64,000 nt of DNA from an uncultured Halothiobacillus sp. (GCA_964655215.1 CAZZMW010000011.1:13417-77416); one strand, 5' to 3'. Positions 6,758 through 33,782 are shown, counted from the first letter of the stretch. The notes: generated by a model not told the origin, from the sequence alone. Numbers and translations: made by a program.

Positions 6758-6778
6758 GTGTCTTACGCTAGGCGTCGA

Positions 6779-15689: not shown

Positions 15690-15725
15690 TCGAGTAAAGA
15701 AAAAGAAGCCCCGCGAACGGGGCTT
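15690..15725 (-). terminator. rho-independent terminator of the minus-strand cluster
   Basis: AAGCCCCG-CGAA-CGGGGCTT perfect 8-bp stem. The minus strand then reads CTTTTTCTTT. Lies 50 nt after the stop at 15776. Confidence 0.65.
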
Positions 15726-15775: not shown

Positions 15776-16567
15776 TTACTGTTGCCAGTAGCCCTGTAGC
15801 CTTTCTTTCTGCTCTTTTGTCAGCACTTCATCCATTTTCTGGTGAGCATCTACGGCATTCTGATACATCTGCTGCTGCAATTTTGAAATGTCCTTTTCGG
15901 CCTTCTCAATGGCTGCATTATCTGGAGATGGCGCTTCACTCAGTTCACCGATTTTAGCTTGTTGATCCTGAATTTGACCCATTAACGCCCAGTTGGATTT
16001 GCGGGTCTGATTCTGAATGGCGTTAATTTTCGTTCTCTGGTCATTGCTCAGAGCCAGCGGATTTCGCGCTACGCCACCTCTTGCTCCTGGGCCGAAACCT
16101 GGGCCATATCCATTCATCATGCCTGGGCCATAACCAGGACCGTAGCCACCCATCATGCCGGGGCCGAAACCTGGGCCATATCCATACATCATGCTGCGGC
16201 CATAGCCTGGGCCGTAACCACCACCCATCATGCCTGGTCCATAACCGGGTCCGTAGCCGTTCATCATTCCCGCTCCATAACCCGGACCGTAACCGCCCAT
16301 CATGCCTGGGCCATAGCCTTGGCCGTACCCACCCATCATCCAAGGGCCATAGCTCGGACCGTATCCATTCATCATGCCCGGGCCATAGCCTTGGCCGTAC
16401 CCGCCCATCATTCCGGGGCCATATCCTGGGCCATATCCGCCGTTGTATGTGCTTGTGTTGGGGGCAGGTGTATCCGTCTGTTCTGCCAGAGCACTCGTTG
16501 CTGTTCCAGCCAAAACTGCTGCAAAAGCCAAGGTTACGAGCTTATTAGGATGTCGAAAGCGTTTCAT
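15776..16567 (-). CDS. periplasmic LTXXQ (Spy/CpxP/ZraP-like) protein with N-terminal Gly/Tyr/Met-rich repeat domain
   Basis: Signal peptide MKRFRHPNKLVTLAFAAVLAGTATSALA, about 10 x 12-aa repeats, then a helical domain with LSNDQ and LTKEQ (LTXXQ) motifs. GGAGAAGGA SD precedes the ATG at 16567. Confidence 0.75.
   Translation of the reverse strand: MKRFRHPNKLVTLAFAAVLAGTATSALAEQTDTPAPNTSTYNGGYGPGYGPGMMGGYGQGYGPGMMNGYGPSYGPWMMGGYGQGYGPGMMGGYGPGYGAGMMNGYGPGYGPGMMGGGYGPGYGRSMMYGYGPGFGPGMMGGYGPGYGPGMMNGYGPGFGPGARGGVARNPLALSNDQRTKINAIQNQTRKSNWALMGQIQDQQAKIGELSEAPSPDNAAIEKAEKDISKLQQQMYQNAVDAHQKMDEVLTKEQKERLQGYWQQ
16085..16441 (-). repeat. coding tandem repeat, about 10 copies of a 36-nt / 12-aa unit xGYGPGYGPGMM
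   Basis: GGYGPGYGPGMM GGYGQGYGPGMM NGYGPSYGPWMM ... read directly from the translation. There are nine MM pairs. Confidence 0.9.
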
Positions 16568-16701
16568 GATTATTCCTTCTCCTACGTTGACGATATGGGG
16601 CATGCATTCTGCTCCCACTTTGTACGTGCTGGGCGAGGTCGACCAGTACTCCCTGACAAACACCCAAAGGTTCAATCCTAAAGGTATTTATTTCTGATTT
16701 A

Positions 16702-18003
16702 TTAAAAGATCGTTTGAAAATACAAGTACGTTGCATTGTTGTCTGATGCTGAGTTCTTGTCACCGGCAAATTTCGTATAAAAGGTGTACTGAAGGCCGAG
16801 TCTCAGGTTGATGTATGGCTGATTCCAGCTCGTATTCTTGCCAAAAGGTACCCAACTGATTTCTGCAACGCCCCCCTCTGTATTCGGTGATCCGCCATAG
16901 AGCAAAGCATCAGAGCTGCCATCATTGGCTATCGCTGCCAGCGTAGCGCCGTACGTATTTTCATACCAGTAGGACGCATTTACATTCGTCGCATTAAGAT
17001 GATTGTGCAGGTTTGATGCGGCGCCCTCAGCGAATGTGTTGTTCAACGTTTGTTTTTCATACACATACAGACCCTGCAGCGTGATGCTGTGCTTGAGGTC
17101 ACTGCTGGACCACTGATAATTGGCATCAACACCATAATCCTTGTAATCGTCGGTACCGACCCCCAGCCCCATCGGTTGAATTTGTGGGGAAAAGTACATG
17201 CCGCCAACTTCCAGATTGCTCTGTGAACTCAGGTTGGTCTGATATGCCAGTCGCAGATAAGGCGCGGTCTGATAGAGTCGACCAATGTAATCTGCATTGA
17301 CCTTATTCAGGAAAGATTGTGACAGTGTCCGATAGCCACCAGCTTCCAGGTACCACTTGTCATCGATTTGAGTGTAGGCGGTTAGGCCTAGAGAGGCGTT
17401 TGCAAAGGCATCCATGATAATGGGGGTGGCCGGTGCTCCCGGGGCGAGATCGCCGCTGGAATAGGGGTATTGCCATGCAGGCGCCGTATTGTATATGTCC
17501 GTGATTGTGGGGGCGTTGTTCAGTGAAATCCCCCATATGGCTGAATGTGTGCCCAGTTCGCTTGTTCGTGCATACCGCAGATCAGTCATGTCCCAACCAA
17601 CTTTATGTCCATTCTGTGAATAGGAGGCGAGGGTAAACAGACCCATGTGGTCGCTAATGGGACCTGCAAGGTACAAATCGACGGTTTGCAGTTCCCAATT
17701 GTTATTGGTGTTGAAACCGGGGGCAGGTGGTGTTGCCTGATCTTTTTGTGTGTGAAGGAACGATTCAAGAACTTGTGCTGAAATTTTCGGGTTGAATCCT
17801 CCTCCCGATTTCAGCATATAGCCCTTGAGTTTGAACTCGCGACCCAATGGGGTCAGTTGCGGACCAAAAGCGCCGACATGGCATGCAGCGCAGGATAATC
17901 CCGTTTGTCTTGAAAAGGCAGGGATAGCTTGTACTTCAGGGATTGACCCCAGTAGCAATAGAATCAGTAGAGACCAAGTGGGCCATGTTTTTTGCGAGAT
18001 CAT
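16702..18003 (-). CDS. fused monoheme cytochrome c / outer-membrane beta-barrel protein (Cyc2-like architecture)
   Basis: Signal peptide ...GSIPEVQA. A single CAACH (17878-17892) sits 12 residues into the mature protein, within FSRQTGLSCAACH...LTPLGREFKLKGY. About 390 aa of amphipathic beta-strand-like sequence then ends in YLYFQTIF (terminal Phe). AGGAGG SD. Confidence 0.6.
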   Translation of the reverse strand: MISQKTWPTWSLLILLLLGSIPEVQAIPAFSRQTGLSCAACHVGAFGPQLTPLGREFKLKGYMLKSGGGFNPKISAQVLESFLHTQKDQATPPAPGFNTNNNWELQTVDLYLAGPISDHMGLFTLASYSQNGHKVGWDMTDLRYARTSELGTHSAIWGISLNNAPTITDIYNTAPAWQYPYSSGDLAPGAPATPIIMDAFANASLGLTAYTQIDDKWYLEAGGYRTLSQSFLNKVNADYIGRLYQTAPYLRLAYQTNLSSQSNLEVGGMYFSPQIQPMGLGVGTDDYKDYGVDANYQWSSSDLKHSITLQGLYVYEKQTLNNTFAEGAASNLHNHLNATNVNASYWYENTYGATLAAIANDGSSDALLYGGSPNTEGGVAEISWVPFGKNTSWNQPYINLRLGLQYTFYTKFAGDKNSASDNNATYLYFQTIF

Positions 18004-18124
18004 AAAACTGCCTCCTGCCGATAGTTGTTAAATTTGCACAACCATCTCTGAATGTTCTCGACCGCATCAAAAAGCGATGTTAATAACCAGTGGACAACGT
18101 TCTACAAAATTCCAAATCGCAATT

Positions 18125-18544
18125 CTAGTAGGGCGCATACTTAGCCAAGTATCTAATGATTTCATCAGTTTGCTGAGCGTCCGGCTCAGGCATGCGACGA
18201 TAGTGCATATAGTTGTTCATTCGAGCCACGACATATGGCCATTGCTGGGCAGTATGTTGCCGTGGATCCGGCATCGCGTGGCATTGGATGCAGAACTCCT
18301 GCTCGAGTCGCTCTCCATGAGAGATGCTTTCGTTCTGGGTAATGTGCTGGTGATCCGCATCGCGGTTAGCTCCATTAGAGTTGCCCATCATCATGCCCGT
18401 GCCGTTCCCGTCCATCATGCCTTGACCATTACCATATTCGCCACCCTGGACGGGGGCTTCTGGTTGATCGGCAGCGGCGACCGAACTCCCCCCTGCTACT
18501 ACAGTAGCGAGGACAAAAGCTCTTAAAAATTGAATTTTCCTCAC
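18125..18544 (-). CDS. secreted monoheme cytochrome c with Gly/Met-rich N-terminal region
   Basis: Signal peptide, then GGEYGNGQGMMDGNGTGMMMGNSNG, then a single CIQCH with downstream W..VV.RM pattern. GTG start with AGAGGGGG SD. Confidence 0.65.
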   Translation of the reverse strand: MRKIQFLRAFVLATVVAGGSSVAAADQPEAPVQGGEYGNGQGMMDGNGTGMMMGNSNGANRDADHQHITQNESISHGERLEQEFCIQCHAMPDPRQHTAQQWPYVVARMNNYMHYRRMPEPDAQQTDEIIRYLAKYAPY

Positions 18545-18616
18545 AATAGACCCCCTCTATCGAATGATCTATCTTGGATAGTGAATTACCGGGGATGTAC
18601 CCGAGCGCCGGGATGA

Positions 18617-18910
18617 TTACCGGCCGTCTTTAAGGATTTGTCTGCGTTTGACGAACTCATCTTCGTCAATCTCCCCATGAGCGAAACGCTTCTCCAATAT
18701 ATGTAACGCTTCATCCAAACGAGCCTGGCGCGTGATTTGAGAATTGTCAGCTGGATTGGTGTGGTGGATGCCTGAACCGGCTAGCCAACGAAGTAATCCA
18801 ACGATGAGTGCGATAAGAATAACCAGACCCAGCAGCATGAATATGAAACCGAAGCCGTTCATTCCCCATCCGCCACCAAACATCGGACCGTAACCATTGT
18901 AATACCCCAT
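18617..18910 (-). CDS. SHOCT-domain membrane protein
   Basis: Gly-rich N-terminus (GYYNGYGPMFGGGWGMNG), one TM helix, and C-terminal LEKRFAHGEIDEDEFVKRRQIL (SHOCT-like). Confidence 0.7.
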   Translation of the reverse strand: MGYYNGYGPMFGGGWGMNGFGFIFMLLGLVILIALIVGLLRWLAGSGIHHTNPADNSQITRQARLDEALHILEKRFAHGEIDEDEFVKRRQILKDGR

Positions 18911-20511: not shown

Positions 20512-21963
20512 CTACCGAACAGATTTCGATTTGACTGCGAGAATTGCCTGGTTGCGCAGTGTGCGTAAGCTATTGGCGTTACCTTCGTGAAAGACGTTAT
20601 TTTTGCCTTCCAGGTAGATAAGTCCGAATGGTGCCCGATTGATGTAAAGCGGCAAGACTTCTGCCATATCCGATTTCCCCGAAAATTGCCAATCTGCGAT
20701 GTCATCACTAGGCATGGCGGGGCGGGGTAGGGCTCGATCCTCGGCCGACTGGAACGTTTGAGCAATCCGGGAATTTCCCTTCAACGATATAGGCATTTGT
20801 GTACGAAGCCGTGCGTACAGGGGGCCTTCACCCATTTTCGGTACTAGTTGCCAGTTATTCCGATCAAGCATGTAGAGCGCAGCCAAGTCCAGATTGAGTC
20901 CCTCGGCCATTGCTTTCAGAATCAGACCGAATATATCGCCCAGTTTGTAATCGCTCATCAATTTGACGGTGACATCTTCAATGCAGCGAGTCAGTACTTC
21001 CGAGCGCTGTTCGTTTGAGGCGGCTGTCGGCATGGTGTCTATGGGCAGTTGATCATCATTTTCCATGCTCATGCGTTGTAAAAACGCCGGCTTCGCCTGG
21101 GTTTGAACCAGCATGGACTCGTATTCTTGGATGTGCGCACGGGCATCGTTTACTGCTTCTTGATACAGCATTGGATCGATCCCCGCGGCTTTGGCCAGCT
21201 CAGCCATTCCCTGCTGCATTTGCGCAAAGGTGGCCGCATTGGCCATGATCGATGCCGTCTCGTTAGCCAAGCGACCGATTGCCTGAGCTTTTGCCGTGGG
21301 GTTGAGACCCATAAGCTTGCCGGGCGTAGCGCGTGTGGTCAGAAAACGTCGTGCAGATTCGGGCAATCCCCATTGCTGACAGACATCCCGGGCAAGCGCC
21401 GCTGGTAGAACACCGGTCACGGCATGTATCGCGCTCGATTCATCCAAACCATCAACATTCTGGGCGCGCTCAATTTCCGAAAGCACCTCTGGCGCATGGC
21501 GGTAGATCAGTAAGGCGCCAAAGTCCTGGAATAGTGCACTTAGAAACATCTCCTCTACAGTGAAACCCCCTATATGACTGGCTAGGTTCTTGGCAAGGAA
21601 GGCCTGAAAGAGGGCTTGCAAGAAACGGCTTTGAAGCAATTTACCGTGTTGCTTGCACTCGATTTGCTCGAAAAGCGACATGGCCAGTGCCGCCATGCGG
21701 ATTTCTTCGAACCCCATCAGAGTAACTGCGCGGGAGATTGTCGTTACCTGACCACCAAGATGTCGATATTCAACGGCGTTGGCCAGGCGCAAAATCCGAT
21801 GCGTAAGTGCCGGATCCTTGAGGATGAGCTTGACGAGTTCGTCCGACGAGGCGAGATCATTTTCTATGACGCGATAGGCCTCCTGAACAGTACGCGCAAA
21901 GGCGGGAAAATCAGGACTGGCAGCAATGCGTTTGAGTAAAATTTGGTGGAAATCGTCTTTCAA
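20512..21963 (-). CDS. HDOD-domain signalling protein with C-terminal GAF-like region
   Basis: LILKDPALTHRILRLANAVEYRHLGGQVTTISRAVTLMGFEEIRMAALAMSLF is a typical HDOD core. Confidence 0.75.
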   Translation of the reverse strand: MKDDFHQILLKRIAASPDFPAFARTVQEAYRVIENDLASSDELVKLILKDPALTHRILRLANAVEYRHLGGQVTTISRAVTLMGFEEIRMAALAMSLFEQIECKQHGKLLQSRFLQALFQAFLAKNLASHIGGFTVEEMFLSALFQDFGALLIYRHAPEVLSEIERAQNVDGLDESSAIHAVTGVLPAALARDVCQQWGLPESARRFLTTRATPGKLMGLNPTAKAQAIGRLANETASIMANAATFAQMQQGMAELAKAAGIDPMLYQEAVNDARAHIQEYESMLVQTQAKPAFLQRMSMENDDQLPIDTMPTAASNEQRSEVLTRCIEDVTVKLMSDYKLGDIFGLILKAMAEGLNLDLAALYMLDRNNWQLVPKMGEGPLYARLRTQMPISLKGNSRIAQTFQSAEDRALPRPAMPSDDIADWQFSGKSDMAEVLPLYINRAPFGLIYLEGKNNVFHEGNANSLRTLRNQAILAVKSKSVR

Positions 21964-22288: not shown

Positions 22289-24775
22289 GTGACAAAATTC
22301 AGTGAACTGGATATTGGTGTAGATGGCATGACTTGCGCGTCGTGTAGCTCGCGAGTGGAGCGTGGTCTTGCCAGCCTTCCAGGTGTGGCTTCCGCCAGTG
22401 TGAATCTCGCCACTGAACAGGCAACGATCCAATTCGACCCACAACAGGTAAGTCCTGCCGAGGTAGTCGAAGTCATCAGGGATGTTGGATATACACCTGT
22501 TGTTGCCGAGATAGATCTCGCTATCGAAGGGATGACGTGCGCTTCTTGCGTCGGGCGAGTTGAGCGTGCACTGAAACATTTGCCTGCTGTACTGGATGCC
22601 GAGGTGAATCTAGCGACCGAACGCGCCCATGTTCGCTATATTCCAGCGATGGTTGGTCCGGATGAGTTGATTGTCGCGGTAACTGGGGCTGGCTATGGTG
22701 CCAGCCTTGCCGAAGGTGTTGAGTCGGGTGATAACCGTCAGCATGAGAACCTCATCGCCATGAAGCGTGATGTGATTCTGGCTGTTAGCTTCTCCCTGAT
22801 GATCATGTTGTTGTCCATGGGCGTCATGTTCATACCGGCATTGGGACGAATGTTGGTTGGAATCAGCCCGTTCCAGGATTTTTGGGATTGGGTCCAACTG
22901 CTCCTTGCCTCAGTTGTACTGTTCGGCCCCGGTCGCCGTTTTTTCAAACCGGGGCTCATCGCCTATCGCCACCTATCGCCTGACATGAACTCACTTGTCG
23001 CGACCGGTACTGGCGCGGCCTACGCTTATAGTGTGTTGGTTCTCGTTCTGCCTGCCTTGTTTCCGACCGAGGCCAGGCATGTTTATTTTGACTCGTCTGC
23101 GGTGGTCATCGCGGCCGTATTGGCAGGCAAATATCTTGAGGCACTTGCCAAAGGCAGAACGTCCGCTGCTATTCGCAAACTCATCGATTTACAGGCGAAA
23201 ATGGCACACATCCTGGATGAGTCCGATGTCGAGCGAGACGTGCCTTTGGCTCAGTTGCACAAAGGTGATCGATTTGTCGTGCGCCCTGGAGAGCGAATTC
23301 CGACGGATGGGCGAGTAATTGAGGGACGCGCCCATATCGACCAATCGATGCTGACGGGAGAACCATTGCCTGTCGCCAAAGGGCAGGGCGATGAGGTCGT
23401 CGGGGGTACGGTCGATCAGGATGGACGGTTGGTGATTGAGGCGACTTCAGTTGGTCGTGATACCGTTCTGGCTCAGATCATCAAGCTGGTTGAAAGTGCT
23501 CAGACAGGTAAGCTGCCGATACAGGGTCTGGCCGATCGCGTTGTTCGCGTGTTTACGCCCGTTGTGCTGGCCATAGCGCTTATTACATTCATCACCTGGA
23601 TTGTACTGACCGGCAATGTGAGTGTGGCGCTTGTCGCCGCAGTCGCCGTGCTGGTGGTTGCCTGTCCCTGTGCCATGGGATTGGCAACGCCCGCCGCCAT
23701 TATGGTGGGCACGGGGCGTGCAGCAGAGTTGGGTGTGCTTTTTCGCAAAGGTGAAGCATTGGAAGCACTTTCCCGAGTGGATACGGTTCTGTTCGATAAG
23801 ACGGGGACATTGACTGAAGGTCGTCCGACTTTATCGGATATCGGTGGCCCATCACCCGATGAAGCGCTACGTATGGCGGCGGCTCTTGAAGGTGCATCCG
23901 AGCATCCTCTGGGGCGTGCTATTGTGACTGCTGCAGCACAGCGCGGTGTCGTTACGCTTGTTGCCGAGGACTTTCGTTCAGTCGTCGGTGATGGGATTGA
24001 AGGCATGATTGAAGGACGCAAGGTGCGTGTCGGTTCCCGCCATTTTCTCGAGCGTGAAGGTGTGGAGCTTGGCTCAAATCTAACTGAAGCCGCACGGTTT
24101 GAAGAAGCTGGCCAAACGGCAGTATTTGTCTCTGCAGATAGCACGTTTCTCGGCTGGCTGGCGATTGCTGATCGAGTCAAACCCGAAGCAAAAAGCGTGG
24201 TTGATGCCTTGCGCCAGCGTGGTATCAACATCGCCATGGTGACCGGCGATGCCCAGCGGACCGCTCGAACGGTTGCCGCATCGCTGGGTATTGATGAAGT
24301 GCACGCAGAAATTCGACCACAGGATAAGGCCAAGGTGGTCATCGAATTTCAATCTAAAGGACGTCGCATTGCATTCGTTGGCGACGGTATCAATGATGCG
24401 CCTGCTTTGGCTCAAGCTGATGTCGGCATTGCGCTGGCTTCGGGAACAGATATCGCCATCGAGGCAGCCGATGTCACCCTTACTCGTGGCCAATTGCGCG
24501 AGGTGGTTACGGCAATAACGGTCGCTCGACACACCTTATCCAATATTCGAGGCAATCTGTTTTGGGCCTTCTTTTACAATATTCTTTTGATCCCCATTGC
24601 TGCGGGCGTAGCCGTTTCAATCGGCATTCATCTGAATCCGATGGTGGCCGGTGTGGCAATGGGCTTATCCTCCGTGTTTGTACTGGGGAACAGTCTTCGT
24701 CTCAAAGGGCTCAAAGCGTTTCAACCAGACCAGATCACCCAATCAACCGATATTTCGTCTCACCCTAAAACCTAG
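22289..24775 (+). CDS. copA: Cu(I)-exporting P1B-type ATPase
   Basis: Two N-terminal HMA domains (GMTCASC x2), CPC motif ([11 protein letters not shown]), [20 protein letters not shown] start. Confidence 0.92.
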
Positions 24776-24786
24776 AGGTATTACCC

Positions 24787-25182
24787 ATGAGTTCTTATGT
24801 TTTCTCCGTCACCAGCCCTAAAGATTACGAATCAACCATACCAATGGTTACCGAGGCGTTGAAGCAGGAGGGTTTTGGTGTGCTGACTACGATCGATGTG
24901 GCTGCCACACTCAAAGCAAAATTAGGTATCGAACGAAAGCCTTACATTATCCTGGGTGCCTGTAACCCGAACTTTGCCCATCAGGCATTGGAAGCCGAAC
25001 CGGATATCGGTGCTCTGTTGCCCTGTAACGTTGTCGTGCGAACCGAACCGGATGACACGGTAAGTGTCGTATTTATGGATCCGGTATCCGTTCTGGGGAT
25101 GGTCAGCCGCCCCGGGGTGGACAAACTCGGTCACGAGGTTCGTGAAAGGCTCATGCGTGTTGCTGAATCAGTACGCGGTTAG
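24787..25182 (+). CDS. DUF302-domain protein
   Basis: GFGVLTTIDVAATLKAKLG...YIILGACNP..A..AL...DIGALLPCNVVV pattern. Confidence 0.7.
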   Translation: MSSYVFSVTSPKDYESTIPMVTEALKQEGFGVLTTIDVAATLKAKLGIERKPYIILGACNPNFAHQALEAEPDIGALLPCNVVVRTEPDDTVSVVFMDPVSVLGMVSRPGVDKLGHEVRERLMRVAESVRG

Positions 25183-25212
25183 TGGAAGCACTTCGAATCA
25201 GGGGGATCAACA

Positions 25213-25419
25213 ATGAGTGAAATCAAGTTGAAGATTACCGGCATGACCTGCGAACACTGCGTTCGCGCGGTTACCAAAGTACTAAAAGGTGTGCCGGGTG
25301 TAACCGATGCTGAAGTTACCTTGCAGCCGGGTTCCGCAGTCGTTCATGGCGAGATGGCCCCGGCGGATCTTATTTCAGCAGTGACCAGTGAAGGTTATGC
25401 AGCAGAGGTTCAGTCTTGA
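25213..25419 (+). CDS. copZ: copper chaperone, HMA domain
   Basis: 68 aa with the GMTCEHC metal-binding loop. Confidence 0.85.
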   Translation: MSEIKLKITGMTCEHCVRAVTKVLKGVPGVTDAEVTLQPGSAVVHGEMAPADLISAVTSEGYAAEVQS

Positions 25420-25691
25420 GTACCGCACCTCAGATCACGAGCGCCTCTGTATTGCTTTACACCAGTCCCGGTTGTCCTGATTGTGCAGCCATCCGCAGCT
25501 ATCTCAATGCACATCAGATTGATTTCGAAGAGCGCAGCGTGGCAACCCCTGGTGTGGCCGATGAGGCCAAATCCCGTTATGGCGTGCGTGTCGCACCGAT
25601 TACTGTTATTGCAGGCAATGCAATATGGGGGACCTTCACTGAACAGAAGCCGAGGCTTGATGCCATGTTCGGGAAAACTGTAACGCGATAG
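25416..25691 (+). CDS. glutaredoxin-like thioredoxin-fold protein
   Basis: LYTSPGCPDCAAIRSYL (CPxC). TTG start overlaps the copZ stop. Confidence 0.6.
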   Translation: MSTAPQITSASVLLYTSPGCPDCAAIRSYLNAHQIDFEERSVATPGVADEAKSRYGVRVAPITVIAGNAIWGTFTEQKPRLDAMFGKTVTR

Positions 25692-27399: not shown

Positions 27400-28368
27400 C
27401 TACTCAATTTGGGGGAGACGTGGCTCACGATCAGACCTAGTCCGCATCAACAACAGGAACGCTTGTACGGTAAAAAGCATCGATGCGATCAGCAGGTGTA
27501 GAGGCTGGGCGATTATGGGCAGATCCTTCACGATCAGGATAATGCCCAAGAGAATCTGGGTGAGCACGATCAAGGTAAGGGCAACAAGAGTGCGTTTCAC
27601 CAGTGGCCCGCCTCCAACCAGCCGTGTGATCAGCCAAAGATTGACCAGGAACACAACCACTGCCCCAGCGATGTGGATGTTCAGCACCGGGCCAATTTTG
27701 TCCAGCCAATGCGCCCCGACATGGAGATCGCCCGAGTTCGCTCCGATCTGATCGACACGTTCGCGAACCTGCGCACCGAGACCGGTCTGCACCAGGGTGA
27801 CCAGGGTCGCAAGCGGCAAGGCGGGGAACCAGCGGTGCTTTATATCTGCTGCGACACCGCAGGATTCCGGCAAGGTCAGCGAAACCACGGCCACCAACAG
27901 CAGAATGACACCATAGGAAAGCATCATATGGGTGGTGACCACCGCCGCATGTAGATTCGTCTCGATGACGACTGCGCCCAGCCAGCCATTCAGGGTGACG
28001 AGAAAAAAGGCACCGCCAGCCAGCCAGGGCAGCCGAGCGTCATGGCGACGCGTCAAGAAAGAAAGCGCGAATGTCAGGATCGATAGAAGCCCGATGAGCG
28101 TTCCAGTCAAGCGATTGAGGTATTCTGTCCAGGTCTTTATCGGATCGAATTTCATCTTGTCATAGCCAAGCCGCGCATAAGTGTGCCTGTAGTCGGGCGG
28201 CAGATCGGCCTCGCTGAATGGCGGGACAATGCGGCCGAAGCAGGTCGGCCAATCCGGACAGCCCATGCCGGCACCCGTAGCCCGTACGGTGCTACCCACC
28301 CATATCAGGAATAGCACGGCCAGTACCGTCACGATGGCCATGATGCGCAGTTGTTTCAGTCGTTTCAT
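27400..28368 (-). CDS. ctaA: heme A synthase (COX15/CtaA)
   Basis: VRATGAGMGCPDWPTCFG motif and multi-TM protein, in an oxidase assembly cluster. Confidence 0.85.
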   Translation of the reverse strand: MKRLKQLRIMAIVTVLAVLFLIWVGSTVRATGAGMGCPDWPTCFGRIVPPFSEADLPPDYRHTYARLGYDKMKFDPIKTWTEYLNRLTGTLIGLLSILTFALSFLTRRHDARLPWLAGGAFFLVTLNGWLGAVVIETNLHAAVVTTHMMLSYGVILLLVAVVSLTLPESCGVAADIKHRWFPALPLATLVTLVQTGLGAQVRERVDQIGANSGDLHVGAHWLDKIGPVLNIHIAGAVVVFLVNLWLITRLVGGGPLVKRTLVALTLIVLTQILLGIILIVKDLPIIAQPLHLLIASMLFTVQAFLLLMRTRSDREPRLPQIE

Positions 28369-28555
28369 GCCTTGGCATCCCTCGTATCAATCCAAATATC
28401 TTCCCGGCATCCTGTACGGTGCCGTACTTACCCACTGCGTTCGCGACCGTGCTGTACCCATGCAGTCCAACGTGCCTTGAAAAAACGTCACTGCAAAATC
28501 CGAGTGCAAGGAACCATCTCATGGGGGTCCGAGCCCGACAGGATGTTAATTCTGC

Positions 28556-29545
28556 CTATTCAGGTTGCGGGTTAATGTTCGGGTTTCGCGCCCGCTTTTG
28601 CCAGGCTAGCAGGCCGGACAGCATGGCAATCGGTAGGATGAGTACACCCCAGAACCAGAGTACCCGCCCACCAATACCCAGTATTCCTCCGGTGTGCAGT
28701 GCGGCCAGCCAATCGCCCATCGAAAGGCTTGTCGGCTCTCGTGCACCGTTGCGATAGCTCTGGCCAAATGGTCCAACACTACCGGGTGCGGTGCATCGAG
28801 CCAAAGTAGTGCCGTCCGCACGCCACCAGATCATGTTGATCCGTTGCCCGGAACAGATACCCGTTAGATCCTGAGAAGCCTGGAATAGCGCCTTGTTCGG
28901 CGGTTGTAACGTGTCAAAGGAAACCCCGTCGAATACGGCCACCACGCCCGTGGTCGCGCAGACTAGCCAGACCCAGGCCGCGATTGCCACCATTCGAAAA
29001 TGTAACGTCACGGAGCGTCTTCCATTTCGACGTCGCCGACTCAACCACCCGAAAAGGAACAGAACGATCACGCCCATCGACGAAATGACCACAAGCACCT
29101 GGCCTGGTAGACCGGTGCTCAGTGATCTATGAAACCGCCCGAGCCAGTACAGGGAGTCATCGTCGGCAAGACGTTGGTCGACGATGTGTTGCCGGTATGG
29201 ATCGATGAAGATCTCCCTGGTTAGCCCTTGGGGGGCACGCACGGTTGCGACAATGGTGTCCTGGGGACGATCGGGCATTTCAAGGCTCAGCAGACGGTCT
29301 TTCGTCTGCCACTGGTGAATGAAATGCACCACTTCCGCTGGGGACATGACTTGCCCTTCGCCGACGGCCGAGACAGTCCAACGGTCGGGGGTAATCACGC
29401 GCTCGAATTCGCGGGCGAAAGCCAAACCCACACCCGAAAGTGCGACCAGCGTCACCGGAATCAATAGCACCACCCCAAGCCAGGTGTGCAGGCGAAAGGC
29501 CCAGGGCTTGCGGACACTTGGAGCCGGATTAGGCTGGAAACTCAT
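28556..29545 (-). CDS. PepSY-associated TM-helix protein
   Basis: N-terminal RLHTWLGVVLLIPVTLVALSGVGLAF pattern, four TM helices and a periplasmic PepSY-like segment. Confidence 0.65.
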   Translation of the reverse strand: MSFQPNPAPSVRKPWAFRLHTWLGVVLLIPVTLVALSGVGLAFAREFERVITPDRWTVSAVGEGQVMSPAEVVHFIHQWQTKDRLLSLEMPDRPQDTIVATVRAPQGLTREIFIDPYRQHIVDQRLADDDSLYWLGRFHRSLSTGLPGQVLVVISSMGVIVLFLFGWLSRRRRNGRRSVTLHFRMVAIAAWVWLVCATTGVVAVFDGVSFDTLQPPNKALFQASQDLTGICSGQRINMIWWRADGTTLARCTAPGSVGPFGQSYRNGAREPTSLSMGDWLAALHTGGILGIGGRVLWFWGVLILPIAMLSGLLAWQKRARNPNINPQPE

Positions 29546-29653
29546 GCCGTTAGATGCCGAAATGATAGGTGGTCACGTTGGGTGCCTCGATAAGCCAACC
29601 GCTGGCAAGTCTACGCCAACTCAACGCGAAGAGGGTGTCAGCATGCTGGCGGA

Positions 29654-30298
29654 TCACTGTTCAGGCCAGGATTGGGCAATCAGTTGCTTAAGGTCGGCGG
29701 TGATCTGTGCGCTGGTTTCCTGTTGGTCTACCAGCAGTCGCGCATTACCCTTGGGATCGAATATGTAGATCGAAGCGCTGTGATTGACCTCGTAGAACGT
29801 CTTCTTGTCTGGATAACCCTTGCCATAGCTGTAGGCAACACGATAACGCTTGGTCACGTCTTTCAATTGGGATTGAGTGCCGGTCAGCCCGAGCATCCGG
29901 GGCGAGAAATACTTGACGTATTCGCGTAATACTTTGGGCGTGTCCCGGTTGGGATCGACCGAGACGAAAAGCACCTGGACCTTCTCTGCCTGTTTACCCA
30001 GGGCCAGAAGGGAAGCCGCAAGCCGAGTCAGGGTTTGCGGGCATACATCCGGGCAAAAGGTATAACCGAAGTACAGCATGACCACCTTGCCACGATAATC
30101 CTTGCCAGTGACGGACTTGCCGTGGTCATCTGTGAGGTTGAATGTCAGCGGTTCCATCACCCCCGAAATGTCGGTTGCGTTCCACTTGACCGGCTCCTTG
30201 CCGCTACACCCCGCCAAAATCACTGAAAGAATCAGGGTGGCCAGTGCAGGCGCAATAAACCGTGCGCTCACTCTGGTGCGAACTCCATGCAATTGCAT
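29654..30298 (-). CDS. SCO1/SenC copper chaperone (lipoprotein)
   Basis: Lipobox LAGC. FGYTFCPDVCP (CxxxC) and downstream H..SIYIFDPKG. Confidence 0.85.
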   Translation of the reverse strand: MQLHGVRTRVSARFIAPALATLILSVILAGCSGKEPVKWNATDISGVMEPLTFNLTDDHGKSVTGKDYRGKVVMLYFGYTFCPDVCPQTLTRLAASLLALGKQAEKVQVLFVSVDPNRDTPKVLREYVKYFSPRMLGLTGTQSQLKDVTKRYRVAYSYGKGYPDKKTFYEVNHSASIYIFDPKGNARLLVDQQETSAQITADLKQLIAQSWPEQ

Positions 30299-30307
30299 AC
30301 GTTTACC

Positions 30308-31219
30308 TCAGGTTGCTCTGCACGAATCCCCGAGTGGATTCGCGTCGTTCCGACTGTCGTGAAATGAATTGATGTCCTCCACCGGACTTTCCTGTGTTAC
30401 GCGTGACCAACGACCCAGGAGTACCAGTGCACTCAGTACACTCATCATGGCGGCTGGAATCCAGGTCACTAGGCCACCCAACTCCTGCTCTTGGAGCGCA
30501 TTCATTGGCAATACACGCCCGCACAAGGCATAAATGCTATACAAATCCGTTGGGCTGAGCGCAATGAATGCGCCAAGCACGATCTGAGGAAACATGACCA
30601 GGAACAAGACCAGCATCCGCACCCCATAGTGACGCACATCCGGCTCACCCGGTCGACGCAGGTTGAAGATCATCCACCAGAACAGCAGCCCATCGATGGC
30701 CATACCCCAGTTCATGGCGTTGTAGAGCGGGATGCTGAGCATGGCGTAGAAATGAATGCTCGGTATCAGCCAAAAGTAGATGATGGCGACAAACAGAAAT
30801 CCAGCGACAAAAGGCTGCTGAATCACCCGAAATGGCCCACGGATCAACGGACTGCGCACGATTGGGTCGACCAGGTAGCGCCGGATGGCGTTTGGCAGAC
30901 CGGCTTCGATCACCGGCGCTGGTGCTGACACCGCGATTAGGAATGGTCCGAGATGATGCAGCACCAGATGCTGAGTCCGATGGATGAAGAAACTGAAGTG
31001 GCCGTAGTAATCCACTTGGGTTTGCAGAACGACGTAGATACTGATAAGCCCGATCCAGAAAAGCAGGACGCCCCAGCCGAAACGGCGCTCTAGACGTCGT
31101 TGGCCGCGATAGTAAAGGTAGCCACTCAGTAGGCAGACGACCAGGATGGTCGGGGAAAACTCATACGGCAGCAAAAAATCCGCGATAGGGAGCAGGTTTT
31201 GATAAAGAAATTCTACCAC
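30308..31219 (-). CDS. ctaG: cytochrome c oxidase assembly factor CtaG (Caa3_CtaG type)
   Basis: Polytopic membrane protein of the Bacillus-type CtaG pattern, located between SCO1 and ctaB. Confidence 0.7.
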   Translation of the reverse strand: MVEFLYQNLLPIADFLLPYEFSPTILVVCLLSGYLYYRGQRRLERRFGWGVLLFWIGLISIYVVLQTQVDYYGHFSFFIHRTQHLVLHHLGPFLIAVSAPAPVIEAGLPNAIRRYLVDPIVRSPLIRGPFRVIQQPFVAGFLFVAIIYFWLIPSIHFYAMLSIPLYNAMNWGMAIDGLLFWWMIFNLRRPGEPDVRHYGVRMLVLFLVMFPQIVLGAFIALSPTDLYSIYALCGRVLPMNALQEQELGGLVTWIPAAMMSVLSALVLLGRWSRVTQESPVEDINSFHDSRNDANPLGDSCRAT

Positions 31220-31309
31220 CGCCCAGTCACCGTGCGTATAGCATCGGGCACAGAGACAAGAGCATGATGGTCGATTTTGCCCTGGTTCATCATGACCGTT
31301 CCGTTTGGG

Positions 31310-32230
31310 TTACCAAGATGACCAGCCACTCACGGGCAGGTAGTGATCGACCAGTAACAAGGCAAATAGTACAGTCAGGTAGGTGATTGAAAAACCAAAC
31401 AACCGCATCGCTAGGCGGTCGCTGTCGACGTACATGAGGTGATAGGCACGTACGGCAAATATGCCGCCGAGAATGGTTGCACCTATCAGATAGAAGGGAC
31501 CGCTCAGCCCCACCGTTACCGGCAGATAGCTCACCGGAATAAGGACCATGGCATAGGCGAAGATGCTTCGTTTGGTATAAGCAACACCATGTATCACCGG
31601 CATCATGGGCACCCCGGCTTTTGCATACTCCTCGCGGCGCGCTATTGCCAGGGCCCAGAAATGTGGCGGGGTCCAGACAAAAATGATCAGGAACAGGGCT
31701 AGGGCCTCCCAGCCAATCGTCCCTGTGATGGCACACCAGCCCAGCATCGCAGGCGCCGCACCGGAAGCGCCACCGAGAACGATATTCTGGGGCCCGATCC
31801 ATTTGAGGTAGCGGGTGTAAATCACGGCATAGCCAATCAGCGTCAACAATGTGAGTACGGCGGTTAGCGGATTAACAAGAGTCCACAGAATCAAAAGGGC
31901 CACCGTACCAAGCATGGTGGCGAATAGGGTGGCCGAGCTGCGGGTGATATTGCCCGTCGGCAATGGTCTATTTTGTGTGCGCCCCATGACCGTGTCGATT
32001 TCACGATCGGCAATGTGGTTGAAAGCAGCGGCGGACGCGCCTGCGAGAGCGATACCAATCGTTGCGGCCAACACGGTTGCCCAGGGCAGACTGCCCGGTG
32101 GTGACGCAAGCACCATGGACACCAGGGCAGTAAATACAACGAGCGAGACGACTTTTATCTTGCACAGTTTCAAATAACTGCGCCAAGAAGCTGTCGGTAC
32201 AAGGGGGAGAGATTGGGTACGGATCGTCAT
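31310..32230 (-). CDS. ctaB: heme O synthase (protoheme IX farnesyltransferase)
   Basis: NHIADREID..M.RT..RPL motif of the UbiA family. 306 aa. Confidence 0.9.
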   Translation of the reverse strand: MTIRTQSLPLVPTASWRSYLKLCKIKVVSLVVFTALVSMVLASPPGSLPWATVLAATIGIALAGASAAAFNHIADREIDTVMGRTQNRPLPTGNITRSSATLFATMLGTVALLILWTLVNPLTAVLTLLTLIGYAVIYTRYLKWIGPQNIVLGGASGAAPAMLGWCAITGTIGWEALALFLIIFVWTPPHFWALAIARREEYAKAGVPMMPVIHGVAYTKRSIFAYAMVLIPVSYLPVTVGLSGPFYLIGATILGGIFAVRAYHLMYVDSDRLAMRLFGFSITYLTVLFALLLVDHYLPVSGWSSW

Positions 32231-32307
32231 TGGATAGCTCCACTTCGATATGTTCTTCTGCCGTTGGTCGGCAAATTTTTGTAATCGTGTGTCATGCGAT
32301 TCATGGT

Positions 32308-32907
32308 TTAGTTGCCAGCGAGCTTGAGTAGGAGTTTCAGGTCCTTGAGCAACCCGTTCGGGATGAATCCCGGGGGGTAACGCATCACCAGAAATCCCTG
32401 TGGATCAATGAGATAAACTGACCCTGCGTGCAGCGGCCAGTCATCTGCTGTGACGACGTGCAAGCCTTTGTCGAACTGATCCGCGAGGCCTGGAACCTGC
32501 TCCGCGTACTGCGGTAGAACCAGCACAAGTCGAACTTCACGCATCGAACGATCCTGTGCAATGCGAATTCGGCGCAGGGTATCCATCAGCGCTAGACAAT
32601 CCTTGTCACAAGGATTGGCAAGCCCGTTAGAGGTTCCGGCTTTACGGTCCGGGATGTGGTAGACCAGAGTCCACTTGCCGCGAAATAAATCGGGGGAAAC
32701 GGCATTGCCCTGAAGGTCGTGTATCAGGGGCGGGGCAAGTTTTTGGCCAGAGGGCAGGAGTTCGCCGTGCTCCAAGCCACCCTTAAAAATACCGGCGTAG
32801 TAATGGAAGACTAGCCACGCCAGCACCAGTGGTATACCGAAGATCAATAGCAAGCTGCCGACGACGGGACCTTTGCGCTGAGGCAATATGCTGCTTACGC
32901 CTTCCAT
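32308..32907 (-). CDS. membrane-anchored SCO-like thioredoxin-fold protein (second SCO paralog)
   Basis: One TM helix, CDKDC (CxxxC), and H..SVYLIDPQG resembling the SCO1 His/Asp-Pro region. Start taken at MEGVSS. Confidence 0.5.
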   Translation of the reverse strand: MEGVSSILPQRKGPVVGSLLLIFGIPLVLAWLVFHYYAGIFKGGLEHGELLPSGQKLAPPLIHDLQGNAVSPDLFRGKWTLVYHIPDRKAGTSNGLANPCDKDCLALMDTLRRIRIAQDRSMREVRLVLVLPQYAEQVPGLADQFDKGLHVVTADDWPLHAGSVYLIDPQGFLVMRYPPGFIPNGLLKDLKLLLKLAGN

Positions 32908-33626: not shown

Positions 33627-33782
33627 GACGTCCTCTCTAGTCGGTTTCTGTACTTCGGAGAAATCAGTTTTCAATTTGGCTAACTCACTTCAAGCGTTTG
33701 AAGGGGGGGTGTTGCAATAACCAGGTTTTTGCGGGACACCCCTGCCAGGACAACCCAACCTTATAAAAGGGGGTGCCCCGGG

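What the first reader, a model, noticed from the sequence alone, without database searches (positions are those of the whole stretch)
15776..18910. Four-gene cluster: SHOCT protein, Gly/Met-rich monoheme cytochrome c, Cyc2-style cytochrome-porin fusion, Gly/Met-repeat LTXXQ chaperone-like protein
Four co-oriented genes sit 72-134 nt apart, each with a strong SD, and end in a clean terminator.

The 433-aa product has a signal peptide and one CAACH 12 residues into the mature chain. About 390 aa of beta-strand-like sequence follow, ending in a terminal Phe. This is the architecture described for Cyc2, the candidate outer-membrane Fe(II) oxidase.

Three of the four products carry related G-x-G-x-G-M-M segments:
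- GYGPMFGGGWGM in the SHOCT protein
- GNGQGMMDGNGTGMMMG in the cytochrome
- 10 x GYGPGYGPGMM in the LTXXQ protein

These look like soft-metal (Cu(I)-type) Met motifs. The cluster lies 3.4 kb from copA-copZ and about 9 kb from a caa3-like oxidase. I do not recognise this gene combination as a described system. It could be an extracellular or periplasmic metal (Fe(II) or Cu(I)) oxidation or detoxification module.
Basis: partly seen in the sequence, partly recalled or inferred. Interest (0 to 1): 0.75.

Follow-up and report, generated by a model that had tools for sequence, protein, structure and literature searches.

The report
Cyc2 porin-cytochrome inside a metal-stress gene trio
A sulfur-oxidising Halothiobacillus carries a four-gene unit that joins a known type of outer-membrane iron-oxidising cytochrome (Cyc2) to three small methionine-rich envelope proteins that, in other bacteria, sit inside copper and heavy-metal efflux islands, which suggests a role in handling toxic reduced metals rather than only in gaining energy from iron.

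Summary
Four co-oriented minus-strand genes lie 72, 121 and 134 nt apart, each with a Shine-Dalgarno site, and one terminator follows.

The 433-aa protein is a real Cyc2-family porin-cytochrome:
- it carries the Cyc2 signature AxPxFAR[QK][TY]..CxxCH..PxL;
- it models as a 16-stranded barrel;
- it has more than 1,200 homologues, and is 61% identical to a Sulfuriferula protein and 42-46% to Thiomonas ones; Cyc2 of both genera is published as Cluster 2.

The new result concerns the other three genes. The Met-arm cytochrome c, the SHOCT membrane protein and the Gly/Met-repeat LTXXQ (CpxP/ZraP-like) protein form a recurrent set without Cyc2:
- in Thiobacillus they lie between a P-type ATPase-DUF302 pair and an RND efflux system;
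- in Ca. Tenderia the SHOCT-cytochrome pair ends a cusCBA-cusF cluster.

Fusions exist in other organisms (LTXXQ::cytochrome c and SHOCT::cytochrome c). The cytochrome-cyc2 pair recurs in four arrangements among the closest Cyc2 relatives, nearly always beside copA, copZ, cus or multicopper-oxidase genes.

Most likely this is an envelope metal-redox and stress module. Whether the substrate is Fe(II) or Cu(I) is unresolved. I found no description of the trio in the literature. I rate it a new variant of a known kind, of moderate to high interest.

The parts
18617..18910 (-). SHOCT membrane protein, 97 aa. It has a Gly/Met/Tyr-rich N-terminal tail, one TM helix and a C-terminal SHOCT domain.
   Evidence: Pfam SHOCT scores E=6e-6 at 26.2 bits, just under the 27-bit cutoff. 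Homologues next to the cytochrome in L086, L100/101, L102 and L107 are recorded as PF09851. Identity is 57% to the L086 copy and 100% to L099.
18125..18544 (-). Monoheme c-type cytochrome, 139 aa. It has a signal peptide, a disordered Gly/Met arm of about 45 aa (GQGMMDGNGTGMMMG), and a compact haem domain of about 65 aa (CIQCH...QHTAQQWPYVVARM).
   Evidence: Invariant residues are C85, C88, H89, P92, P94, H97, W102, V105, V106, R108, M109. In the AF2 model residues 1-70 are unstructured and 73-139 form three helices at pLDDT 81-95. There are 571 representative clusters of this domain, mostly dihaem and Met-rich. Curated models give only weak SorB, TorC and DHC hits.
16702..18003 (-). Cyc2-family fused monoheme cytochrome-porin, 433 aa.
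   Evidence: It carries the motif AIPAFSRQTGLSCAACHVGAFGPQL. The AF2 model has pTM 0.75 and 16 long strands. Foldseek matches outer-membrane porins, including OprO 4rjw. There are 1267 homologues. Identity is 61% to a Sulfuriferula 'cytochrome C' and 42-46% to Thiomonas.
15776..16567 (-). Periplasmic LTXXQ / Metal_resist (CpxP-Spy-ZraP-like) protein, 263 aa, with about ten N-terminal GYGPGYGPGMM units.
   Evidence: Pfam Metal_resist scores 32.9 bits and LTXXQ 30.7 bits, both above their cutoffs. The same architecture is found in L084, L090, L091 and L107, for example (GYGMGPGMMG)n in Thiobacillus.
16086..16438 (-). 36-nt tandem repeat array (9.7 copies) that encodes the Gly/Tyr/Pro/Met units.
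   Evidence: TRF result. Members of the 90% cluster differ in length (263, 265 and 275-277 aa); the 263 to 275 aa step equals one 12-aa unit.
15706..15725 (-). Intrinsic-terminator-like hairpin followed by a T-run, closing the four-gene unit.
   Evidence: 8-bp stem with 6 GC pairs, loop TTCG, tail CTTTTTCTTT.
20512..21963 (-). HDOD-domain protein (context; possible signalling partner).
   Evidence: Pfam HDOD scores 1e-30. A 76%-identical HDOD gene lies directly upstream of cyc2 in L085.
22289..25691 (+). copA - DUF302 - copZ - glutaredoxin copper-export cluster (context).
   Evidence: Pfam hits and ORFs. The same cluster lies beside or near cyc2 in L001 and L089, and DUF302-copZ lies beside it in L102-104.
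27400..36580 (-). caa3-type cytochrome c oxidase genes with assembly factors (CtaA, PepSY_TM, SCO1, CtaG, haem O synthase, SURF1, CoxA, CoxB-cyt c). This is a candidate electron sink (context).
   Evidence: Pfam hits.

Best explanation
This is an accessory operon of a Halothiobacillus. It wires a Cyc2-type outer-membrane porin-cytochrome to a dedicated periplasmic monoheme cytochrome c, and expresses both together with two envelope proteins from a metal-stress gene set.

**Proposed mechanism**
- The haem of Cyc2, plugged into its 16-strand barrel, takes single electrons from reduced metal ions at the cell surface. By homology the substrate is Fe(II).
- The 139-aa cytochrome accepts those electrons in the periplasm.
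- Its flexible Gly/Met arm, the matching arms of the SHOCT protein and the repeat array of the LTXXQ protein bind soft ions such as Cu(I). This holds them next to the haem for oxidation or hands them to export systems.
- Electrons leave through the respiratory chain; a caa3 oxidase is encoded nearby.
- The LTXXQ protein acts as a periplasmic chaperone or metal buffer. The SHOCT protein acts as a membrane anchor or organiser.

The net function would be envelope protection against reduced, toxic metals (Cu(I), Fe(II)), with energy conservation as a possible bonus, rather than a dedicated lithotrophic pathway.

**Shown:** gene order, protein families, the barrel fold, conserved pairing, fusions, and metal-island context of the partners.

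**Inferred:** co-transcription, metal binding by the Met arms, direction of electron flow, substrate identity.
For: **Cyc2 identity**
- Signature motif, barrel and homologues.
- Sulfuriferula and Thiomonas Cyc2 are published as Cluster 2, and Sulfuriferula isolates grow on Fe(II).

**Functional linkage of the four genes**
- L084 (Cyc2 95% identical) and the fragment L099 have the same gene order.
- The cytochrome-cyc2 pair also occurs in L102-105 (85.6%) and L001 (82%).
- In L086-88 (71%) the cytochrome domain is fused behind an LTXXQ domain directly upstream of cyc2. SHOCT, a CopL-like gene and cusCBA follow.
- P0127 is a SHOCT::dihaem cytochrome fusion. P0231 and P0244 are LTXXQ::cytochrome fusions.

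**Metal context of the trio without Cyc2**
- Thiobacillus: arsR, P-type ATPase, DUF302, cytochrome, SHOCT, LTXXQ, then OEP-MFP-RND, with cusRS and a multicopper oxidase (MCO) alongside. L090 and L091 have the same ATPase-to-RND core.
- Ca. Tenderia: cusC-cusB-cusA-cusF-SHOCT-cytochrome, with overlapping SHOCT and cytochrome reading frames.
- YHS, PPK2 and CopA-like neighbours in L095-98, and MerR in L092.
- A Variovorax metal-resistance plasmid.

**Metal genes around Cyc2**
- Of 10 distinct Cyc2 contexts at 61% identity or more, 8 have copA, copZ, cus or MCO genes within 10 kb.
- Only about 6 of the 80 more distant loci gave any P-type ATPase or RND hit, and most of those were weak.

**Other support**
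- The Met/Gly arm is specific to the three partners in the window and is a family trait: 89 of 150 representatives have at least 5 Met in 20 aa.
- An unrelated c551-like cytochrome beside copA in L089 also carries a Met arm.
- Hoover et al. state that the function of Cluster 2 Cyc2 depends on supporting context.
Against: - No expression, binding or activity data exist for any of these proteins.
- The only demonstrated activity in the Cyc2 family is Fe(II) oxidation, and Met-rich arms are not needed for that.
- No copper-responsive regulator or recognisable operator sits in the cluster.
- The Thiobacillus island has an ArsR regulator, an HMA-less ATPase and CzcB-type adaptor domains. It may therefore serve Zn or Cd, which are redox-inert.
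- One close relative (L003, 62%) and 80 more distant Cyc2 loci show no partner genes.
- The close loci are phylogenetically related, so counts of contexts are not independent.
- Gly/Met/Tyr low-complexity arms could be mere linkers.
Confidence: 0.45

Rival explanations
1. This is a plain Fe(II)-oxidation respiratory pathway. Cyc2 oxidises extracellular Fe(II), the 139-aa cytochrome is simply its periplasmic shuttle to the caa3 oxidase, and Halothiobacillus gains energy from it. SHOCT and LTXXQ are generic envelope-stress helpers, and the Met-rich arms are linkers inherited from the cytochrome's ancestry.
For: - All tested Cyc2 membership criteria are met.
- Cluster 2 includes the verified A. 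ferrooxidans oxidase, and Sulfuriferula isolates with cyc2 grow on Fe(II).
- A caa3 oxidase and CO2-fixation genes (RuBisCO, carboxysome, DAB) are in the same window.
- The monoheme cytochrome subfamily is found specifically next to cyc2.
- An MCO-FTR1 iron-type pair lies beside cyc2 in L103.
Against: - The cytochrome's relatives, and both other partners, are overwhelmingly in metal-efflux islands with no Cyc2.
- Copper genes flank cyc2 in most close relatives.
- No rusticyanin, Cyc1 (c4) or bc1 genes accompany the cluster.
- I found no report of Fe(II) oxidation by Halothiobacillus.
- The function of Cluster 2 homologues is considered context-dependent.
Confidence: 0.3
2. Electron flow runs the other way, as a cupric (or ferric) reductase feeding efflux. 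The respiratory chain reduces the Met-arm cytochrome. The cytochrome reduces periplasmic Cu(II) to Cu(I) on its arm and passes it to CusF/CusB-type exporters, which accept only Cu(I). Cyc2 would let the same electrons reach extracellular acceptors.
For: - The SHOCT-cytochrome pair lies directly after cusCBA-cusF in Tenderia, with overlapping SHOCT and cytochrome reading frames.
- cusCBA follows the module in L086.
- Reviews list no periplasmic cupric reductase in bacteria, so the role is open.
- Porin-cytochromes can conduct electrons in either direction (text on Mto/Mtr).
Against: - This is purely contextual.
- In sulfur oxidisers the periplasm is already reducing, so making Cu(I) seems unnecessary.
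- The window has no cus genes within 64 kb.
- The islands also encode MCOs, which are oxidases.
Confidence: 0.12
3. There is no functional unit. cyc2 has landed by rearrangement or horizontal transfer in a variable metal-resistance region, and its neighbours act independently.
For: - The cluster sits at different genomic positions in related genomes. In L001 it lies between LysR/CsoS2 and peptidase M90. In L085 cyc2 directly follows an HDOD gene, and in the window the cluster lies 1.6 kb from the HDOD gene.
- The intergenic gaps of 72-134 nt are long enough for separate promoters.
- L085 and L003 have cyc2 without the partners.
Against: - The cytochrome-cyc2 adjacency survives four different rearrangements, down to 71% Cyc2 identity.
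- Two kinds of domain fusion link the partners.
- There is a single terminator after the fourth gene and none between genes.
Confidence: 0.1

Closest known systems
Cyc2 fused cytochrome-porin Fe(II) oxidase (A. ferrooxidans Cyc2, Mariprofundus Cyc2PV-1; Cluster 2-type homologues of Sulfuriferula and Thiomonas)
   Same: Signal peptide. Single CXXCH close to the mature N-terminus. AxPxFAR[QK][TY] motif before the haem site and PxL after it. Length of about 430-460 aa. 16-strand porin with C-terminal Phe. 61% identity to a Sulfuriferula homologue.
   Different: It is not in a rus-type operon: there is no Cyc1 (c4), rusticyanin or cox genes adjacent. Instead it is paired with a Met-arm SorB-like monoheme cytochrome, a SHOCT protein and a Met-repeat LTXXQ protein, in a copper-homeostasis neighbourhood. 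The host genus is known as an obligate sulfur oxidiser. The motif has Ser where the consensus has Ala (FSR rather than FAR).
CpxP / Spy / ZraP periplasmic chaperones (Pfam LTXXQ PF07813, Metal_resist PF13801)
   Same: A C-terminal helical LTXXQ domain that scores above both Pfam cutoffs. It is periplasmic. ZraP-type members are metal-associated; from memory, E. coli ZraP has a Gly/Met/Tyr-rich tail.
   Different: It carries an N-terminal array of about 120 aa made of ten GYGPGYGPGMM units, encoded by a 36-nt tandem repeat. No ZraSR or CpxAR genes are adjacent. In relatives the domain is fused to a cytochrome c.
Cus copper/silver efflux accessory proteins (CusF) and Met-rich Cu(I) binders (PcoE/SilE, the Met-rich insert of CueO)
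   Same: Periplasmic Met-rich segments in copper-resistance loci. In Tenderia the SHOCT-cytochrome pair sits directly after cusF.
   Different: There is no sequence homology to CusF, PcoE or SilE. The Met segments are Gly-rich, disordered arms attached to a haem domain, a chaperone domain or a TM anchor. A redox cofactor (haem c) is part of the set.
Small class I c-type cytochromes such as SorB of sulfite dehydrogenase (PDB 2blf_B)
   Same: A compact three-helix monoheme domain with CXXCH and a conserved distal Met. SorB gives the best, though weak, sequence and fold matches.
   Different: The matches are far below family thresholds (20 bits against a 93-bit cutoff; Foldseek E=0.18). The domain has its own conserved signature, LPDPxQHTAxQWPxVVxRM, and an N-terminal Met arm. 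Most family members are tandem dihaem proteins.

Membership tests
Cyc2 fused cytochrome-porin (criteria of Keffer et al. 2021, McAllister et al. 2020) | N-terminal signal peptide | tested here: met
   A hydrophobic stretch WSLLILLLLGSIPEVQA precedes the motif. This was judged by inspection only; no SignalP was available.
Cyc2 fused cytochrome-porin | Single CXXCH haem-binding site near the N-terminus | tested here: met
   There is one CAACH at residues 38-42. C38, C41 and H42 are invariant in 28 homologues.
Cyc2 fused cytochrome-porin | AxPxFAR[Q/K][T/Y] motif just upstream of CXXCH (stated to be unique to Cyc2) | tested here: met
   The window has AIPAFSRQT, with one conservative change (A to S). 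The consensus of its homologues is AVPAFARQT.
Cyc2 fused cytochrome-porin | PxL motif a few residues after CXXCH | tested here: met
   The sequence reads CAACH-VGAFG-PQL. P48 and L50 are invariant.
Cyc2 fused cytochrome-porin | Length of at least 365 aa, with a 16-strand beta-barrel porin after the cytochrome segment | tested here: met
   The protein is 433 aa. The AF2 model has pLDDT 71.7, pTM 0.75 and 16 long strands. 237 PDB matches at E<=1e-3 are led by porins and include OprO 4rjw.
Cyc2 fused cytochrome-porin | Match to a FeGenie Cyc2 HMM and placement in Cluster 1, 2 or 3 | not testable with these tools
Indirectly, identity is 61% to a Sulfuriferula sp. protein and 42-46% to Thiomonas, and Cyc2 of both genera is published as Cluster 2. 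An SSN study links AfCyc2 to the Rhodanobacteraceae/Nitrosomonadales cluster.
Cyc2 fused cytochrome-porin | Haem attachment and Fe(II) oxidase activity | not testable with these tools
   This needs biochemistry.
CpxP/Spy/ZraP (LTXXQ, Metal_resist) | Pfam domain above the gathering score, and LTXXQ motifs | tested here: met
   Metal_resist scores 32.9 bits (cutoff 29.2) and LTXXQ 30.7 bits (cutoff 24.3). LTKEQ and LSNDQ motifs are present in the sequence. NCBIfam Spy and CpxP equivalog scores are far below their cutoffs, so it is not an orthologue of either.
SHOCT domain proteins (PF09851) | C-terminal SHOCT domain above the gathering score | tested here: inconclusive
   It scores 26.2 bits against a 27-bit cutoff, E=6e-6. 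Homologous neighbours in other loci are recorded as PF09851, and the P0127 fusion scores 30 bits.
Class I c-type cytochrome | CXXCH plus a distal ligand in a three-helix fold, and a match to a curated model | tested here: inconclusive
   CXXCH and invariant M109 and H97 are present. The three-helix model has pLDDT 81-95. The window protein is below all Pfam and NCBIfam cutoffs. Dihaem relatives reach PF13442 at 47 bits.
Cus copper/silver efflux system | cusCBA/cusF genes in the same cluster | tested here: not met
   No RND, MFP or OEP genes were found among the window ORFs scanned. They are adjacent only in relatives.

The most novel reading that the evidence does not exclude
The Met-arm cytochrome c, SHOCT protein and Met-repeat LTXXQ protein constitute an undescribed, widespread haem-based periplasmic copper-redox module of metal-efflux islands. 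It would be an alternative to multicopper cuprous oxidases. In Halothiobacillus and its relatives this module has captured a Cyc2 porin-cytochrome. If so, at least some Cluster 2 'iron oxidase' homologues actually work in Cu(I)/Fe(II) detoxification or trans-outer-membrane electron venting, not in iron lithotrophy. That would affect the use of cyc2 as a marker gene for iron oxidation.
Probability: 0.25. Interest if true: 0.8.

Novelty: new variant of a known kind. Interest (0 to 1): 0.62.

Why it matters
cyc2 is widely used (for example by FeGenie) as the marker for microbial Fe(II) oxidation, yet the function of Cluster 2 homologues outside known iron oxidisers is openly uncertain. Here a Cyc2 homologue has a conserved, dedicated periplasmic partner whose family otherwise lives in Cu/Ag and heavy-metal efflux islands, and that partner is linked by gene fusions to a CpxP/ZraP-like chaperone and a SHOCT protein.

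This gives three things:
- a concrete, testable hypothesis for what non-canonical Cyc2 homologues do;
- a candidate first function for a common SHOCT membrane-protein type;
- a possible haem-based route for periplasmic copper redox handling, in organisms relevant to mine-waste geochemistry (Halothiobacillus, Thiobacillus, Sulfuriferula).

If the module turns out to be only Fe(II) respiration, it would still add Halothiobacillus to the potential iron oxidisers and identify a new Cyc2 electron acceptor.

Tried and rejected
- **Curated family libraries.** Pfam and NCBIfam gave no hit for the 433-aa protein and no specific model for the cytochrome.
- **PDB sequence searches.** Nothing useful for Cyc2. 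Only generic cytochrome hits for the cytochrome profile.
- **First homologue search with the 73-aa cytochrome fragment.** It returned nothing because of the word index. Searching with an alignment, and the exhaustive HMMER search, worked.
- **Exact look-up of the 433-aa product.** It found no record.
- **Finding the source genome.** The organism was instead identified from 90% clusters of CoxA, CoxB, CopA, CsoSCA and HDOD, all Halothiobacillus.
- **Partners around 83 Cyc2 loci.** tblastn for the three partners found them only in L001. I therefore rejected the idea that the four-gene set is a general Cyc2 feature.
- **Plasmid collection.** One distant hit.
- **Regulatory elements.** Rfam found no RNA element. 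No CueR- or CusR-like operator was evident upstream, only a 16-nt palindrome.
- **Literature.** Searches for SHOCT with copper, cyc2 with copper resistance, Met-rich cytochrome, DUF302 with cytochrome, and Halothiobacillus with cyc2 found no description of the module.
- **Overlapping ORFs.** Antisense or out-of-frame ORFs over the repeat (16041-16343, 16081-16548, 16319-16681) were set aside as by-products of the repeat.
- **Cytochrome fold search.** Foldseek of the cytochrome model gave only weak matches, with SorB at E=0.18.

Full report
**1. Observation**

The region holds four minus-strand genes:
- SHOCT protein, 18910..18617, 97 aa.
- c-type cytochrome, 18544..18125, 139 aa, GTG start.
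- 433-aa protein, 18003..16702.
- LTXXQ protein, 16567..15776, 263 aa.

The gaps are 72, 121 and 134 nt, and each start has a purine-rich Shine-Dalgarno site. The only minus-strand terminator-like hairpin in 15400-19500 lies 50 nt after the last stop, at 15725..15706. The GTG start of the cytochrome and its SD are conserved in two related contigs. The 263-aa LTXXQ product is on record exactly as read here.

The LTXXQ gene contains a 36-nt tandem array of 9.7 copies. It encodes GYGPGYGPGMM-type units.

Among 203 six-frame ORFs of 90 aa or more in the window, only the three small genes contain a 17-aa stretch with at least 3 Met and at least 6 Gly. The shared Gly/Met feature is therefore specific, not compositional.

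**2. The 433-aa protein is a Cyc2-family porin-cytochrome**

Curated libraries give no hit, and no solved relative exists. Keffer et al. 2021 define Cyc2 by these features:
- a signal peptide;
- one CXXCH;
- a Cyc2-unique AxPxFAR[Q/K][T/Y] motif just upstream, and PxL just downstream;
- at least 365 residues;
- a 16-strand porin.

The window protein reads AIPAFSRQT-GLS-CAACH-VGAFG-PQL. The consensus of 28 homologues is AVPAFARQT..C.ACH..GFGPQL, with the haem residues invariant. An AlphaFold2 model has pTM 0.75 and 16 long strands after the N-terminal segment. Foldseek returns 237 outer-membrane barrels at E<=1e-3, led by 16-18-strand barrels and including OprO (4rjw), one of the templates used for Cyc2PV-1.

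The family has more than 1,267 members. The window protein is 61% identical to a Sulfuriferula sp. protein and 42-46% identical to Thiomonas proteins. Cyc2 of Sulfuriferula and Thiomonas is published as Cluster 2, and Sulfuriferula isolates grow on Fe(II). An SSN study connects AfCyc2 to the same Rhodanobacteraceae, Burkholderiales and Nitrosomonadales cluster. I could not run the FeGenie HMMs, so the cluster assignment is indirect.

**3. Host and setting**

CoxA, CoxB, CopA, CsoSCA and the HDOD protein of the window all fall in 90%-identity clusters with Halothiobacillus proteins, including H. neapolitanus.

The window also encodes:
- form II RuBisCO with CbbQ;
- carboxysome CsoS2 and CsoSCA;
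- DabA with an adjacent proton-antiporter-family (DabB-like) gene;
- a caa3 oxidase with assembly factors;
- copA-DUF302-copZ-glutaredoxin, 3.4 kb from the cluster.

The host is thus a sulfur-oxidising chemolithoautotroph. I found no report linking Halothiobacillus with Cyc2.

**4. Are the four genes a unit?**

Around 83 Cyc2 loci (39-82% identity), mostly Rhodanobacter, Dyella and Thiomonas, tblastn finds a partner gene only in L001, where the cytochrome is present. The combination is therefore not a general Cyc2 trait.

The closest relatives tell a different story:

| Locus | Cyc2 identity | Arrangement |
|---|---|---|
| L084 | 95% | SHOCT-cytochrome-cyc2-LTXXQ, same order as the window |
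| L099 | identical fragment | SHOCT-cytochrome-cyc2 |
| L102-105 | 85.6% | SHOCT, then copZ and DUF302 (opposite strand), then cytochrome-cyc2, then an MCO (opposite strand); FTR1 lies beyond it in L103 |
| L001 | 82% | LysR-cytochrome-cyc2, with copA-DUF302-copZ-grx 7 kb away |
| L086-88 | 71% | One 247-aa protein (signal peptide, Met/Gly arm, LTXXQ domain, cytochrome domain), then cyc2; in L086 SHOCT, a CopL-like gene and cusCBA follow |

The cytochrome-cyc2 pair therefore survives four rearrangements, and the LTXXQ and cytochrome domains are fused in one lineage. This argues strongly for functional coupling. Co-transcription in the window itself remains inferred.

**5. The three small genes are a module of their own**

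An exhaustive HMMER search with the haem domain finds 571 representative clusters. Of the best 150, 133 are tandem dihaem proteins of about 200-250 aa, and 89 have at least 5 Met in some 20-aa stretch.

Fusions occur:
- P0127 is SHOCT::dihaem cytochrome. Pfam finds SHOCT at 30 bits and two cytochrome domains.
- P0231 and P0244 are LTXXQ::cytochrome fusions.

Genomic contexts:
- **Thiobacillus sp.** (a protein seen in 93 blocks of the collection): MCO, cusR, cusS, bacA, arsR, P-type ATPase, DUF302, dihaem cytochrome, SHOCT, LTXXQ with (GYGMGPGMMG)n, a 119-aa gene, OEP-MFP-RND, P-II. Two metagenome contigs (L090, L091) share the DUF302-to-RND core, and L090 also holds the arsR and ATPase genes.
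- **Ca. Tenderia electrophaga:** cusC-cusB-cusA-cusF-SHOCT-cytochrome, with the SHOCT and cytochrome reading frames overlapping by 4 nt.
- **Other loci:** DUF302, YHS, PPK2, a CopA-like ATPase or MerR next to the cytochrome.
- **A Variovorax plasmid:** a 283-aa Met-rich version between cadR-FTR1 and an RND/copper-binding cluster.

None of these loci contains cyc2. In L089 (Cyc2 65% identical), a cytochrome of a different subfamily (c551-like) also carries a Met/Gly arm. It sits between cyc2 and grx-copZ-DUF302-copA-merR.

The AF2 model of the window cytochrome shows residues 1-70 unstructured and a confident three-helix haem domain at 73-139. Its best matches are to SorB, and they are weak.

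**6. Metal genes around this Cyc2 clade**

Of ten distinct contexts at 61% identity or more, eight have copA/copZ, cusCBA or an MCO within 10 kb: the window, L084/L099, L102-105, L001, L085, L086-88, L089 and L002. L003 has none, and the short L084 contig cannot be judged beyond the four genes.

Among the 80 more distant loci, only about six gave any P-type ATPase or RND hit, and most of those were weak. These counts are not phylogenetically independent.

**7. Mechanism**

*Shown:*
- a Cyc2-type barrel with an N-terminal haem;
- a conserved, dedicated monoheme partner with a disordered Met arm;
- partner families that are tied together by synteny and fusion and that reside in metal-efflux islands.

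*Inferred:*
- Cyc2 oxidises reduced metal at the surface (Fe(II) by homology);
- the cytochrome relays electrons to the respiratory chain, with a caa3 oxidase nearby;
- the Met arms bind soft ions such as Cu(I), positioning them for oxidation or hand-over;
- LTXXQ buffers or chaperones;
- SHOCT anchors. Its N-tail is predicted to be periplasmic and its SHOCT domain cytoplasmic, which is consistent with the two-TM topology of the P0127 fusion.

I rate this envelope metal-redox and stress model at 0.45. The rivals are:
- plain Fe(II) respiration, 0.30;
- a reversed, cupric-reductase direction feeding Cus, 0.12;
- coincidental juxtaposition, 0.10.

Hoover et al. note that the function of Cluster 2 Cyc2 'depends on supporting context'. 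Here the context points to metal homeostasis.

A metal-induced cytochrome c inside a Cu/Zn efflux cluster has been reported in Nitratiruptor. Its homology to this family was not tested.

**8. Novelty**

The Cyc2 gene itself is a new member of a known family. I found neither of the following described in the searchable literature or in curated model libraries:
- the pairing of Cyc2 with a Met-arm cytochrome, a SHOCT protein and a Met-repeat CpxP/ZraP-like protein;
- the existence of that trio in efflux islands.

I class it as a new variant of a known kind, interest 0.62. The most novel reading not excluded is a haem-based periplasmic copper-redox module that has recruited Cyc2. I give it probability 0.25. 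It would matter for how cyc2 is used as an iron-oxidation marker.

Noticed in passing
window 16086-16438 (LTXXQ gene): Proteins in the same 90%-identity cluster are 263, 265 and 275-277 aa long. The 263 to 275 aa step equals one 12-aa GYGPGYGPGMM unit, so the 36-nt repeat array appears to vary in copy number between strains.
   Followed up: partly
window 19030-19045: A 16-nt palindrome (AAACGGATATCAGTTT on the + strand) lies about 120 nt upstream of the SHOCT start, in the 455-nt region shared with a divergent TIM-barrel gene. It may be an operator. No CueR- or CusR-like box was seen.
   Followed up: no
window 20512-21963 (-) and L085 8109-9560: An HDOD-domain protein lies 1.6 kb upstream of the cluster and divergent from copA. 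Its 76%-identical homologue sits directly upstream of cyc2 in L085, where cyc2 is followed by a trihaem cytochrome and a multicopper oxidase.
   Followed up: partly
L089 4919-5347 (-): A c551-like monoheme cytochrome, unrelated to the window's cytochrome family, also carries a Met/Gly-rich N-terminal arm (GMGSWSLHGMMGMPGGMGRMMG). It lies between cyc2 and grx-copZ-DUF302-copA-merR. This may be a convergent case of a Met arm on a cytochrome in a copper locus.
   Followed up: no
P0127; P0231, P0244; L086 1139-1882: Natural fusions exist: SHOCT::dihaem cytochrome c (297 aa) and Met-arm::LTXXQ::cytochrome c (247-254 aa).
   Followed up: yes
L110 (Variovorax sp. WDL1 plasmid NZ_LR594690.1, record 635208-638836): cadR, a 641-aa FTR1-family protein and a 283-aa Met-rich (12% Met) cytochrome c of this family lie together in a metal-resistance region bounded by an IS1071 transposase. 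In L103 an MCO, an outer-membrane protein and FTR1 lie next to cyc2. FTR1-type transporters recur near this cytochrome family.
   Followed up: no
window 1-64000: The window comes from a Halothiobacillus genome; an 88.5-kb NCBI contig carries the same proteins. It holds two CO2-fixation regions: form II RuBisCO with CbbQ and a VWA protein at 3272-8158, and LysR-CsoS2-CsoSCA at 43444-48010. It also holds a DabA gene and an adjacent proton-antiporter-family (DabB-like) gene at 52261-56401, NnrS, and several PAS-GGDEF(-EAL) proteins.
   Followed up: partly
window 61263-63389 (-) and 9293-12100 (+): There are two further P-type ATPases: a 708-aa heavy-metal-type pump with no HMA domain detected, and a 935-aa P2-type cation pump. 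A P2-type pump also lies near cyc2 in L085.
   Followed up: no
window 16041-16681, both strands: ORFs of 100-155 aa overlap the LTXXQ repeat in other frames and on the + strand. They are rich in Arg, Pro, His and Trp and look like by-products of the GC-rich repeat, not genes.
   Followed up: no
L001 versus window: In L001 the cytochrome-cyc2 pair lies between LysR/CsoS2 and peptidase M90. In the window those flanking genes are at 38444-46399 without cyc2, and the cluster sits near copA/HDOD instead. The module has moved within related genomes.
   Followed up: partly
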